A stretch of 64,000 bases of DNA from Candidatus Micrarchaeota archaeon (GTDB lineage Archaea; Micrarchaeota; Micrarchaeia; Anstonellales; Bilamarchaeaceae), in the NCBI GenBank assembly GCA_038046805.1, contig JBBSVO010000003.1:19878-83877 (forward strand). Reading direction: 5' to 3'. A program made the position numbers and the translations under genes. The notes beneath the pieces are model-generated. The model searched no databases. It was given only the letters and a program-made list of their open reading frames with translations, and was not told where the DNA came from. Shown here piece by piece: positions 2,069 to 4,015 of this stretch (position 1 is the first letter of the stretch; every line of letters begins with the position of its first letter).

Positions 2069-2199
2069 AATACAACCTCTAATGCATTAATCAGTGGAAG
2101 AATTACAGTGGGTTTGTTTTTAAATATTGGCCCCGGAAATAAGAAACTCAAAAGACCATAAAAGTAAACTTTAAATAAGGATCGCAACAGAATAAATCC

Positions 2200-3561
2200 A
2201 TGATGAGACTGCGTGATAGTGCCTCCAGCAGATCAAATGCAAAAAGCAGGAATGCAAGAATATCCATATTTGTTTTAGCCGCGATTTCTGTTTCTGGTAT
2301 AGTGTATACTGTTCAAAAAAGCGAATTGAGGACTAGAGAGGTTTATTTAGTGCAAGAAATCAAAAACGAGGTAGATGGAACAGGGGTTAACATAACAGAT
2401 GAACAGAAAAAAAGAGCGCACGATGAATGGGCTGCGCTAGCAGATTCTTTGACAAACAACGACTTGCTATTGGAGAAACCGCATTTGGATATTAGCAAAC
2501 CAAATTTTATAGGAGATGACGTACTTGAAAGAGCAAAAAAAGATAAAAAATTGGAACACGATATAGCGAAATTTCTTGAAATCAGAGAGGCAGCACTAAA
2601 TGAACAAAGTGAAGCTAAAGCAGAAGGTCACTTAATATGGCATATTAAACGGTCTATAGTCGCCATGAAGGAAGCAAGAGAGATATATAAAGAAAAACAA
2701 GAATTACCTAAAACTGTCCTGCTTATCGGAGGGATACTATTCGTATGCCTTGAAGCTATCTATCAGCTAATTAAATTACCTGGAAGAATGCGCAACTTGT
2801 TTCAAAAGTTAAGCGGACAGATAAAGGGGTTTATACGAAGAAAAACCTGGATTCCATATATAGAACGAAGAGAAGAAGAGCGACAAAGAAGATTAGATGA
2901 AAAACGAAGACAACGAGAAGCTACAGGTAGTCAGACTCCATCGATTGACAACAAAACAGTAATGAAACGCGGAACAATTACTAGCCGAATGGAATTAGCC
3001 GAACCCGCAAGAGAGGTATTATCTGAAAAGATAGGAGACAGAGCATGTGAAATAATATTAGAGGTACTCGGGGATAAGATATCCTCAAGAGTAATGAGAG
3101 GGATTATAAGTGGGAATTATCATGGCTTAATTTCAATTTTAAGAAACTCGAGGATGGCACTTGAGGCACACGAATTCAGAGTTGATGAGGTTATAACCCT
3201 ACTTAGAGGAGAAACCGGTGCCAGCAGTCCGACTAAAGAAATTGACACAATTCCTGCACCAACCAGAAAAAAGCATCCATTGGACGACGCTGAAAGATGG
3301 GGTTGGAGACCTGCGGCTTTTCACCGGTTGCTAATTAGATATGGCTTTGATACAAGCGAACCGACAGGTGGAGGCCATTTCTTTGTGAAATTCGAAGGTG
3401 AAAAAGTAAGAGAACTTGATGGAAGGGCTGTTTTAGTTACAAGCAGAAGCTCAACAAAAGAAGTGACACCAGGTTTAGCGGGTAATATCTTAAAAGCATG
3501 TGCAGATTTTCTAGTTGCAAAAGATACGAAAGAAAGAAGAACTGACATCTCAAAACACTAA
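2200..3561 (+). CDS. Two-TM membrane protein with a coiled coil and a C-terminal HicA-like domain
   Basis: Hydrophobic segments at aa ~21-38 and ~172-191; C-terminal FHRLLIRYGF..GGGH..VLV..KEVTPGLAGNILK matches the HicA pattern. Confidence 0.6.
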   Translation: MMRLRDSASSRSNAKSRNARISIFVLAAISVSGIVYTVQKSELRTREVYLVQEIKNEVDGTGVNITDEQKKRAHDEWAALADSLTNNDLLLEKPHLDISKPNFIGDDVLERAKKDKKLEHDIAKFLEIREAALNEQSEAKAEGHLIWHIKRSIVAMKEAREIYKEKQELPKTVLLIGGILFVCLEAIYQLIKLPGRMRNLFQKLSGQIKGFIRRKTWIPYIERREEERQRRLDEKRRQREATGSQTPSIDNKTVMKRGTITSRMELAEPAREVLSEKIGDRACEIILEVLGDKISSRVMRGIISGNYHGLISILRNSRMALEAHEFRVDEVITLLRGETGASSPTKEIDTIPAPTRKKHPLDDAERWGWRPAAFHRLLIRYGFDTSEPTGGGHFFVKFEGEKVRELDGRAVLVTSRSSTKEVTPGLAGNILKACADFLVAKDTKERRTDISKH

Positions 3562-3592
3562 ACTGGAAACCACCTTGTGCTTCTTCGTTCCC

Positions 3593-4015
3593 TTATGCAA
3601 TCTTGCTTATCTCCCCGCCCATTTTCTTGACTTTTTCCTCGCAGTTTTTACTCCAGGCTAAAGCCTTGATTATTACTGCGTGATTTATCTTTCCAGTGGA
3701 GAGAACCTTTCCTTCAAATGAAAATGCGAATTTTCCGTCCTTTTTCTCCAATTGACCAAGAACTATTTTTCTGTCAATATCGTAAAGATGAACCACTGGC
3801 ACTTTTGTGCATACTCCCTGGGGTCTGTGGAATCCGAATTTTCCGAAATAATCTGGATCATAGACAGTTATCCATGAGAATTTGTGCTTGTGTAAACCGG
3901 CATTTCCTCTGCCTCCACGGTTACCGCTTCCTCTGCGGTTCTTTACGTTTCCGCGGCCAAAAAACCTGTTGCCGAGCTGTTTACATTTTTTAGTTGGTTT
4001 TCTTCTTGAGGCCAT
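3593..4015 (-). CDS. rpl15: Ribosomal protein uL15
   Basis: RGSGNRGGRGNAGLHKHK and YFGKFGF motifs; operon position. Confidence 0.95.
   Translation of the reverse strand: MASRRKPTKKCKQLGNRFFGRGNVKNRRGSGNRGGRGNAGLHKHKFSWITVYDPDYFGKFGFHRPQGVCTKVPVVHLYDIDRKIVLGQLEKKDGKFAFSFEGKVLSTGKINHAVIIKALAWSKNCEEKVKKMGGEISKIA

What the first reader, a model, noticed from the sequence alone, without database searches (positions are those of the whole stretch)
2200..3561. Receptor-like membrane protein ending in a HicA-type RNase domain, inserted backwards into the spc operon
Seen: the ORF splits the normally adjacent rpl15 and secY on the opposite strand. It has a basic N-terminus, TM1, a ~130-aa loop, TM2, a coiled coil (ERREEERQRRLDEKRR), a helical domain, and at ~3301-3520 FHRLLIRYGF..TGGGHFFV..VLV..KEVTPGLAGNILK. 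Known: HicA mRNA interferases are ~60-aa stand-alone toxins with L..GF, G-S-H (catalytic His) and a G....IL helix, normally paired with HicB. Inference: an outside sensor linked to a cytoplasmic RNase, with no HicB nearby, could be a signal-gated nuclease for abortive defence or host contact.
Basis: partly seen in the sequence, partly recalled or inferred. Interest (0 to 1): 0.72.

Follow-up and report, generated by a model that had tools for sequence, protein, structure and literature searches.

The report
Membrane-anchored HicA-like RNase in tiny archaeon
A small symbiotic-type archaeon recently gained, between two ribosomal-operon genes, a membrane protein with a sensor-like outside part and an inside end that is a distant relative of the HicA RNA-cutting toxin with no antidote gene beside it, an arrangement not described for HicA before, though its function is untested.

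Summary
Window 2200-3561 (+) is an intact 453-aa ORF between secY and rpl15, both on the minus strand.

**Insertion.** The same-genus genome has the two genes adjacent. Here 1,462 nt with no flanking repeats replace 26 nt of spacer. Five independent contigs show the same context.

**Architecture.** Basic N-tail, TM1, a 133-aa helical ectodomain, TM2 running into a long charged helix, a novel helical domain, then a C-terminal HicA-like domain. Charge distribution places both termini in the cytoplasm.

**HicA homology is remote but reproducible.**
- The window protein alone scores 13 bits against PF07927 (cut-off 27).
- 14 of 28 family members hit PF07927, and one exceeds the cut-off.
- hhalign against canonical HicA gives 87% probability (E 3.8e-6), aligning H393 with the catalytic GSH histidine.
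- That His is kept in 26 of 28 members.
- The AF2 domain (pLDDT about 97) has alpha-beta-beta-beta-alpha order.

**Family.** It is rare (25 of 1.84 billion representatives; 7 of 401 genomes in the phylum) and confined to DPANN-type archaea. N-terminal modules vary and no partner gene is conserved.

**Verdict.** This is a new membrane-receptor-like architecture for a HicA-superfamily domain. Signal-gated RNase activity is plausible but untested.

The parts
2131..3592 (.). Inserted segment of 1,462 nt that replaces 26 nt of the ancestral L15-secY spacer. It contains a single gene and has no terminal repeats.
   Evidence: Alignment to the empty site in same-genus genome G001: homology ends at window 2130 and resumes at 3593. 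No flanking direct or inverted repeats. GC is 0.37 over 2251-3000 against 0.41-0.46 in the flanks.
2170..2177 (+). TTTAAATA, a TATA-box-like element 22 nt upstream of the ATG. It is the candidate own promoter of the inserted gene, probably giving a leaderless or short-leader mRNA (inference).
   Evidence: Sequence and pattern scan. Not tested experimentally.
2119..2126 (-). TATA-like element in the part of the spacer shared with G001. It is a candidate secY promoter that the insertion left intact (inference).
   Evidence: Conserved block GTTTGTTTTTAAA in the window and in G001.
2200..3561 (+). Complete ORF of 453 aa (P0001), stop codon included.
   Evidence: The identical protein is encoded on 5 contigs.
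2200..2259 (+). Basic cytoplasmic N-terminal tail, aa 1-20 (6 K+R, 1 D+E).
   Evidence: The same bias is present in all 2-TM homologs.
2260..2316 (+). TM1, aa 21-39.
   Evidence: Hydropathy 1.93. Helical in the AF2 model.
2317..2715 (+). Extracytoplasmic helical domain, aa 40-172, about four helices. It carries a degenerate copy of the family motif Gd.qW.aL...F..n..PF...y.D...LL...W...R and one N-I-T sequon (aa 64-66).
   Evidence: AF2 helices 40-59, 67-85, 106-133 and 138-172, pLDDT 82-98. Net charge 24 K+R against 28 D+E. Conservation. No Pfam hit.
2716..2772 (+). TM2, aa 173-191.
   Evidence: Hydropathy 2.28. It is the best-conserved TM segment in the family.
2773..2913 (+). Cytoplasmic basic/charged helix continuous with TM2, aa 192-238. 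It includes ERREEERQRRLDEKRR.
   Evidence: AF2 predicts a single helix over aa 138-238. The 40 aa after TM2 hold 13 K+R against 4 D+E.
2971..3207 (+). Conserved all-helical middle domain, aa 258-336, of unknown family. Signature: A...L....G...vL..klS....r.I..G....L.
   Evidence: AF2 pLDDT 89-97. Conservation. No Pfam or PDB sequence match of note.
3256..3309 (+). Family-specific N-terminal extension of the HicA-like domain, aa 353-370, with HPLD (aa 359-362) and RWGW (aa 366-369).
   Evidence: H359 in 22/28, L361 in 24/28, G368 in 27/28 and W369 in 18/28 members.
3310..3519 (+). HicA-like core, aa 371-440: alpha1 371-380, beta 393-398 (starting at H393), beta 401-404, beta 410-414, then alpha2 from 424. 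A family-specific GE..R...GR hairpin insertion lies between beta2 and beta3.
   Evidence: PF07927 E 0.1 over profile positions 5-55 of 58. hhalign 87%, E 3.8e-6. AF2 pLDDT about 97. Residue conservation. 1whz (Thermus HicA) is the second PDB hit of the family profile, E 0.026.
3376..3378 (+). Codon of His393, the putative catalytic histidine. It aligns with the His of the canonical G-S-H motif.
   Evidence: hhalign column. Kept in 26 of 28 members; N in P0006 and E in P0020.

Best explanation
The gene encodes a membrane-anchored, antitoxin-less member of the HicA superfamily.

**Architecture.** The protein crosses the membrane twice with both ends inside. A helical bundle of about 130 aa faces outside. 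TM2 continues as a long charged helix into the cytoplasm. After a flexible linker come a conserved helical domain of unknown kind and then a divergent HicA (dsRBD-fold) domain that keeps the catalytic histidine.

**Most likely mechanism.** It is a one-protein transmembrane switch. The state of the ectodomain (ligand, envelope stress or cell contact) would be passed down the TM2 helix. That would change how the cytoplasmic helical domain and the HPLD/RWGW extension hold the HicA-like domain, switching on or off RNA binding and cleavage close to the membrane.

**What is shown and what is inferred.** Shown in silico: the ORF, the topology, the domain order, the remote HicA homology, conservation of the His, the lack of a partner gene, and the recent single-gene insertion. 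Inferred: RNase activity, intramolecular gating, and the nature of the signal. The position inside the ribosomal operon is an accident of insertion, because homologs sit in unrelated places.
For: **HicA homology**
- PF07927 is the top hit for the isolated C-terminus (E 0.1, profile positions 5-55 of 58).
- It is the only Pfam family hit by more than one family member (14 of 28, best E 1e-5).
- The G020 homolog scores 28 bits against a cut-off of 27.
- hhalign of the family against 28 canonical HicAs from related genomes gives 87% probability and E 3.8e-6 over 51 columns, with His aligned to His.
- Reciprocal HMMs: 8 of 28 family members score at least 11 bits, while the maximum over 560 shuffles is 5.8 bits; 9 of 28 canonical HicAs score at least 10.7 bits against the family HMM.
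- The family profile hits 1whz, the Thermus HicA, over the right region at E 0.026.
- The stand-alone 86-aa member in G147 combines the family insertion with the canonical IPVH motif, so it looks like an intermediate.

**Fold and conservation**
- AF2 with the alignment gives pLDDT 87.5 overall and about 97 in the domain, with order alpha-beta-beta-beta-alpha.
- H393 is kept in 26/28 members, L378/G382/F383 in 28/28 and G425 in 26/28.

**Topology**
- The positive-inside rule gives N-in/C-in in every 2-TM homolog.

**Effector-plus-variable-sensor pattern**
- The C-terminal domain is constant while the N-terminal parts differ: 2-TM with a long or a short loop, soluble in P0016 and P0027, short forms in L010 and G147.

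**No antitoxin**
- About 12 contexts share no partner gene.
Against: - The window protein alone is far below Pfam's HicA cut-off (13 bits against 27). It scores only 2 bits against the local canonical HicA HMM, so its assignment rests on transitivity through its family.
- A PDB sequence-profile search with the 8-sequence C-terminal alignment found no HicA.
- Foldseek with the full model gave only non-significant helical hits, so no 3D superposition on a HicA structure was obtained.
- The canonical P-x-H motif is kept in only about a third of members and is T-S in this protein.
- Two members lack the His.
- Stand-alone members without any antitoxin (G147, L010) suggest this clade may not be toxic at all.
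- No sensor or signalling domain (HAMP, PAS, 4HB_MCP) is detected by Pfam.
Confidence: 0.55

Rival explanations
1. It is a defence or abortive-infection toxin. The same architecture is used as a surface-triggered suicide RNase that shuts down translation when a virus or a hostile cell engages the ectodomain. This is a special case of the best explanation with a specific biological role.
For: - The distribution is sporadic: 7 of 401 genomes in the phylum, and absent from the same-genus genome.
- It arrived as a recent single-gene insertion with lower GC.
- N-terminal modules vary.
- HicA domains are widely linked to defence contexts (PMC10865869).
Against: - No PADLOC model matches.
- The neighbours are housekeeping genes, not defence islands.
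- The ectodomain motif is conserved across genera rather than hypervariable.
- No integrase or other mobile-element gene lies in the insert.
Confidence: 0.15
2. It is a non-catalytic RNA-binding or protein-binding dsRBD-like module on a membrane scaffold. The HicA-like domain tethers particular RNAs (or a partner protein) at the membrane without cutting them.
For: - The HicA fold is a dsRBD fold (PMC2701414; PMC10865869).
- The P-x-H motif is lost in this protein and in most members, and two members lack the GSH-type His.
- Stand-alone members have no antitoxin, as expected if the domain is harmless.
Against: - The His is retained in 26 of 28 members across 15-47% overall identity.
- Further family-specific conserved His and Arg residues (H359 22/28, H375 20/28, R409 22/28) look like an active site rather than a purely structural surface.
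Confidence: 0.2
3. It is a conventional HicA toxin whose antitoxin is supplied in trans by one of the two canonical HicB proteins encoded on another contig.
For: Two canonical HicA-HicB pairs lie at G000:C4, about 154.6-155.6 kb.
Against: - Those HicBs each already have a cognate HicA next to them.
- The window domain scores 2 bits against the canonical HicA HMM.
- HicA-HicB pairs are described as strictly cognate (PMC2701414).
- Several genomes that carry family members were not checked for HicB, so no co-occurrence has been shown.
Confidence: 0.04
4. The resemblance to HicA is convergent or due to chance, and the C-terminal domain is an unrelated small alpha/beta domain.
For: - The window protein's own Pfam score is sub-threshold.
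- There is no significant PDB sequence hit.
- Foldseek was uninformative.
Against: - The HicA signal recurs in half of the family members independently, and the reciprocal HMM hits lie well above the shuffled controls.
- hhalign gives E 3.8e-6 with motif-to-motif alignment of L..GF, G-x-H and G...IL.
- The secondary-structure order matches.
Confidence: 0.06

Closest known systems
HicA toxins of type II HicAB toxin-antitoxin systems (Pfam PF07927; structures 1WHZ, 4C26, 6G26, 4P78, 5YRZ)
   Same: - The alpha-beta-beta-beta-alpha order.
- The L..GF helix.
- A Gly-x-His motif at the start of beta1, aligned to the catalytic His.
- The G...IL(K) helix.
- Remote profile-level homology.
   Different: - Canonical HicAs are 50-100-aa single-domain proteins encoded next to HicB. 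This one is the C-terminal fifth of a 453-aa two-TM protein with no HicB.
- It has a family-specific HPLD/RWGW N-terminal extension and a GE..R...GR hairpin insertion.
- P-x-H is replaced by T-S.
- It scores below Pfam's cut-off.
Fused or multidomain HicA contexts catalogued by Gerdes 2024 (mBio, PMC10865869): HicA-HicB fusions (classes 11-13) and SMC-HicA (class 14)
   Same: A HicA domain at the C-terminus of a larger protein, encoded monocistronically. In class 14 it follows a long coiled-coil region.
   Different: None of the 14 classes is membrane-anchored: the paper contains no occurrence of 'membrane' or 'transmembrane'. Here there is no HicB domain and no SMC ATPase. The partner modules are a 2-TM ectodomain and a novel helical domain.
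ToxM, the transmembrane BECR(RelE)-fold toxins (Gerdes 2025, mBio, PMC11980606)
   Same: The concept of a TA-type RNase domain joined to a membrane-spanning segment and an extracellular domain.
   Different: - ToxM has a different RNase fold (BECR, not dsRBD).
- Its toxin is N-terminal with a single central TM region.
- It is encoded in a TA module with an antitoxin.
Four-helix-bundle transmembrane sensors of chemoreceptors and histidine kinases (Tar/NarX type), and, by analogy only, Ire1
   Same: The TM1 - helical ectodomain - TM2 - long cytoplasmic helix layout. A NarQ sensor fragment appears among the non-significant Foldseek hits. Ire1 is the known case of a membrane sensor with an RNase output.
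   Different: - There is no sequence or significant structural match to 4HB_MCP, HAMP, kinase or KEN domains.
- The resemblance is architectural only.

Membership tests
HicA_toxin (Pfam PF07927) | Score at or above Pfam's gathering cut-off (27 bits). | tested here: not met
   Window protein: no hit at full length, and 13.2 bits, E 0.1 for the isolated C-terminus. In the family, 14 of 28 members hit at E<=1 and one (the G020 homolog) reaches 28 bits.
HicA superfamily (remote homology) | Significant profile-profile similarity to canonical HicA across the whole domain. | tested here: met
   - hhalign A1 against A2: probability 87%, E 3.8e-6, 51 of 56 columns.
- Reciprocal HMM hits lie above shuffled controls.
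- 1whz is the second PDB hit of the family profile.
HicA superfamily | dsRBD-like alpha-beta-beta-beta-alpha order of secondary structure. | tested here: met
   AF2 (pLDDT about 97): helix 371-380, strands 393-398, 401-404 and 410-414, helix 424-452.
HicA superfamily | 3D superposition on a solved HicA structure. | tested here: inconclusive
   Foldseek accepts only the whole 453-aa model, and its hits were non-significant long-helix proteins.
HicA superfamily | Catalytic His in the G-S-H motif at the start of beta1. | tested here: met
   GGGH with H393 aligned to the canonical His. Kept in 26 of 28 members.
HicA superfamily | Conserved V-P-x-H motif on beta3. | tested here: not met
   The window protein has V-T-S. 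In the family, P is present in 9/28 and H in 10/28 members. In canonical HicAs the P is invariant and the H is present in at least 90%.
Type II HicAB toxin-antitoxin module | Small toxin gene in a two-gene operon with hicB. | tested here: not met
   It is a 453-aa protein flanked by secY and rpl15. PF15919 matches only on contig C4. No HicB lies next to any homolog examined.
Type II HicAB toxin-antitoxin module | RNase activity or growth inhibition neutralised by an antitoxin. | not testable with these tools
   This needs expression and biochemical assays.
Chemoreceptor/histidine-kinase type 4-helix-bundle sensors (4HB_MCP, TarH, HAMP) | Profile match to a known sensor or HAMP domain. | tested here: not met
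   No Pfam or NCBIfam hit in the ectodomain or the juxtamembrane helix for any of the 28 members. The NarQ and Tsr Foldseek hits have E>3.
Known anti-phage defence systems (PADLOC-DB 2.0) | Match to a defence-system protein model. | tested here: not met
   There is only a 13-bit chance-level hit for P0001, and none for P0003, P0016 or P0027.

The most novel reading that the evidence does not exclude
This family is a prokaryotic one-component transmembrane signalling device whose output is regulated RNA cleavage. An Ire1-like logic (outside sensor, inside RNase) would have been built from a domesticated HicA toxin domain that no longer needs an antitoxin because it is gated in cis. Genome-reduced DPANN archaea would use it to respond to host contact or envelope state.
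Probability: 0.2. Interest if true: 0.8.

Novelty: new variant of a known kind. Interest (0 to 1): 0.55.

Why it matters
HicA is regarded as a small free toxin held in check by HicB. The most recent survey lists 14 genetic contexts, and none is membrane-bound.

A conserved family that welds a HicA-like domain to a two-TM, sensor-like module, with no antitoxin, suggests two things:
- a toxin domain can be domesticated into a cis-regulated effector;
- archaea with very small genomes may couple events at the cell surface directly to RNA cleavage.

It also gives a clean, dated example of a single gene landing inside the highly conserved L15-secY junction without breaking the operon. If the RNase activity and its gating were shown, this would be a new type of membrane signalling output in prokaryotes. 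If the domain proves catalytically dead, the finding is a modest new domain architecture.

Tried and rejected
1. **Word-indexed homolog search** found only the protein itself. The exhaustive search and the genome searches were needed to find relatives.
2. **Single-sequence AF2** was useless (pLDDT 43).
3. **Foldseek against the PDB** with the full model returned only BAR, dynein and sigma-factor helical hits at E>0.8.
4. **PDB sequence searches** with the C-terminus and with the 8-sequence profile gave no HicA. The Cullin-3 hits to the middle domain (E about 0.02-0.08) were judged helical-repeat noise.
"Micrarchaeota" comes only from an earlier unverified note.
7. **Transposon-type insertion** was rejected because there are no terminal repeats or target duplication.
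8. **A functional link to SecY or the ribosome** was rejected because homologs lie in unrelated contexts.
9. **Most apparent stand-alone members are fragments or split genes**: P0017, P0019, P0021, P0022 and P0025. Only L010 and G147 are genuine short forms.
10. **wHTH genes upstream of both G026 copies** were considered as possible antitoxins, but the pattern is not seen elsewhere.

Full report
**1. The observation**

Window 2200-3561 (+) is an uninterrupted 453-aa ORF. On the minus strand it is flanked by SecY (659-2068; PF00344, E 3.5e-64) and L15 (3593-4015; PF00828). Beyond L15 lie L30, S5, L18, L19e, L32e, L6 and S8, which is an archaeal spc-type operon. The genome is 1.2 Mb in 16 contigs and about 86% complete. 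An earlier unverified note calls it Micrarchaeota.

**2. It is a recent single-gene insertion, not an assembly error**

- In the same-genus genome G001 (L15 88% identical), L15 and SecY are separated by 122 nt. The gap is 112 nt in G005 and 4 nt in G026.
- Aligning the empty site to the window shows that homology stops at 2130 and resumes at 3593, the L15 stop codon. So 1,462 nt replace 26 nt.
- There are no terminal direct or inverted repeats and no second gene in the insert.
- GC is lower over most of the insert, 0.37 against 0.41-0.46.
- The insert carries its own TTTAAATA box 22 nt before the ATG. The spacer block with a TATA-like element next to secY is retained. Promoter function is inferred, not shown.
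- The identical protein in the same secY/L15 context is found on five independently assembled groundwater contigs, including one with frameshift-type errors typical of long reads.

**3. Anatomy**

- Hydropathy gives two TM segments, aa 21-39 and 173-191.
- The N-tail holds 6 K+R against 1 D+E, and the 40 residues after TM2 hold 13 against 4. The 133-aa loop is slightly acidic, 24 against 28. The same pattern holds in every 2-TM homolog. The topology is therefore N-in/C-in, and the C-terminal domain is cytoplasmic.
- With a 28-sequence alignment AF2 gives mean pLDDT 87.5. The ectodomain is helical (aa 40-59, 67-85, 106-133, 138-172). TM2 is part of one helix spanning aa 138-238 that includes the charged ERREEERQRRLDEKRR stretch. 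Residues 238-257 and 340-351 are low-confidence linkers. Residues 258-336 form a compact helical domain. Residues 371-452 read helix, three strands, helix.
- pTM is 0.45, so the mutual arrangement of the domains is not defined.

**4. Is the C-terminus HicA?**

Evidence for:
- The full-length protein hits nothing in Pfam or NCBIfam. The isolated C-terminus has PF07927 as its top hit at E 0.1 and 13 bits, covering profile positions 5-55 of 58.
- Scanned one by one, 14 of 28 family members hit PF07927 (best E 1e-5), while no other Pfam family is hit by more than one member. The G020 homolog exceeds the curated cut-off, 28 bits against 27.
- I built a canonical HicA alignment from 28 loci in related genomes. 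hhalign of the family against it gives 87% probability and E 3.8e-6 over 51 columns. L..GF aligns with L..GF, H393 with the G-S-H histidine, and PG...ILK with G(T)L..II(R).
- Reciprocal HMM searches give 8 of 28 and 9 of 28 hits at 10.7 bits or more. The maximum over 560 shuffled sequences is 5.8 bits.
- The full-family profile finds 1whz, the Thermus HicA archetype, as its second PDB hit (E 0.026) over the right region.

Evidence against:
- The window protein itself scores only 2 bits against the local canonical HMM.
- The 8-sequence profile finds no HicA in the PDB.
- Foldseek with the whole model is dominated by long helices, with nothing below E 0.8.

I conclude that the domain is a divergent member of the HicA superfamily. 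It is not a member of Pfam's HicA_toxin family by that family's own threshold.

**5. Conservation**

- H393 is kept in 26 of 28 members; P0006 has N and P0020 has E. L378, G382 and F383 are invariant, G392 is in 25/28 and G425 in 26/28.
- The canonical V-P-x-H motif is only partly kept (P in 9/28, H in 10/28) and reads V-T-S in the window protein.
- Family-specific conserved features are an N-terminal extension (HPLD with H359 in 22/28; RWGW with G368 in 27/28), H375 (20/28), a GE..R...GR hairpin insertion (G408 in 23/28, R409 in 22/28) and C434 (25/28).

**6. The family**

- The exhaustive search finds 25 relatives among 1.84 billion representatives.
- Among 60 relatives' genomes, five have full-length homologs at 26-34% identity and one more (G005) matches weakly over the C-terminal domain. 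All are in the same taxonomic family, and the same-genus genome has none. Across 401 genomes of the phylum, 7 carry the domain.
- Most members share the layout 2-TM, ectodomain, helical domain, HicA-like domain. P0024 and P0026 have a short loop. P0016 and P0027 have unrelated soluble N-terminal regions.
- Several short entries are fragments or split genes.
- Genuine short forms exist in G026 (L010) and G147. The G147 protein is 86 aa and combines the family's hairpin insertion with a canonical IPVH motif. It sits between an RNase Z-like and a Lon-like gene without a HicB.
- The ectodomain carries a motif conserved across genera, and so does the middle domain.

**7. Context and partners**

- Homologs lie beside unrelated genes: GlnRS/NrdR, CDP-alcohol phosphatidyltransferase (twice), an aminopeptidase, a DsbA-like protein, an AAA ATPase, and NifU/IscS (three times).
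- No small partner gene recurs.
- No PADLOC model matches.
- The genome does hold two canonical HicAB pairs, but on another contig and each with its own cognate partner.

**8. Literature**

- HicA-HicB is described as a strictly cognate pair (PMC2701414).
- Gerdes 2024 lists 14 HicA contexts, including HicA-HicB fusions and an SMC-HicA fusion. The text never mentions a membrane (PMC10865869).
- A transmembrane RelE-fold toxin, ToxM, has been described, but it has a different fold, the opposite domain order and an antitoxin (PMC11980606).

**9. Interpretation**

The constant C-terminal effector with variable N-terminal modules, the continuous TM2-to-cytoplasm helix, the conserved ectodomain motif and the absence of any antitoxin best fit a cis-regulated, membrane-tethered HicA-like RNase whose activity depends on the state of the N-terminal module. 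My confidence in that reading is 0.55.

Whether its role is signalling or defence cannot be decided. A non-catalytic RNA-binding role remains a serious alternative, given the lost P-x-H motif and the antitoxin-less short forms.

The location between rpl15 and secY appears incidental.

**10. Limits**

Noticed in passing
G000:C4:154661-155613 (outside the window; loci L011-L014): Two canonical HicB-HicA pairs lie back to back: HicB 74 aa with HicA 76 aa on the minus strand, and HicB 74 aa with HicA 80 aa on the plus strand. They are separated by about 130 nt.
   Followed up: partly
L030 (G015:C1:1005904-1006056, minus strand): A PF07927 HicA domain (32 bits) lies inside a 1,709-aa open frame in a related genome. 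It may be an archaeal example of the SMC-HicA fusion, class 14 of Gerdes 2024.
   Followed up: no
L056, L058, L060 (contexts of P0017, P0016, P0027): NifU_N and/or cysteine desulfurase (Aminotran_5) genes lie immediately downstream of three family members, including the distant P0027. This could be shared synteny or a functional link; it is undecided.
   Followed up: no
L002 707-1183 and L010 870-1307 (both in G026): Both G026 copies of the family are preceded on the same strand by a winged-helix gene. Before the full-length copy it is an ArsR-type HTH with a C-terminal TM segment. Before the short copy it is a weak HTH_20 protein. This pattern is not seen in other genomes.
   Followed up: partly
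L060 4231-4959: A 242-aa protein with a weak response-regulator receiver domain ends 42 nt before the soluble family member P0027, on the same strand. A PIN/MazE pair lies nearby.
   Followed up: no
L044 733-768 (G001, L15-secY spacer): The empty-site spacer of the same-genus genome contains an 18-nt tandem direct repeat (ACGTCGTAAAACAATTGG / ACGTTGTAAAACAATTGG) that is absent from the window's spacer.
   Followed up: no
L063 1-1472: P0019 (146 aa) is the C-terminal half of a split or frameshifted full-length family gene. The upstream 344-aa open frame overlaps its start by 4 nt.
   Followed up: partly
L067 2163-3326 (G147): The Lon-like ATPase gene downstream of the stand-alone HicA-like gene appears to carry an intein-like insertion. 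Its sequence after the Walker A region diverges into a long unrelated segment.
   Followed up: no
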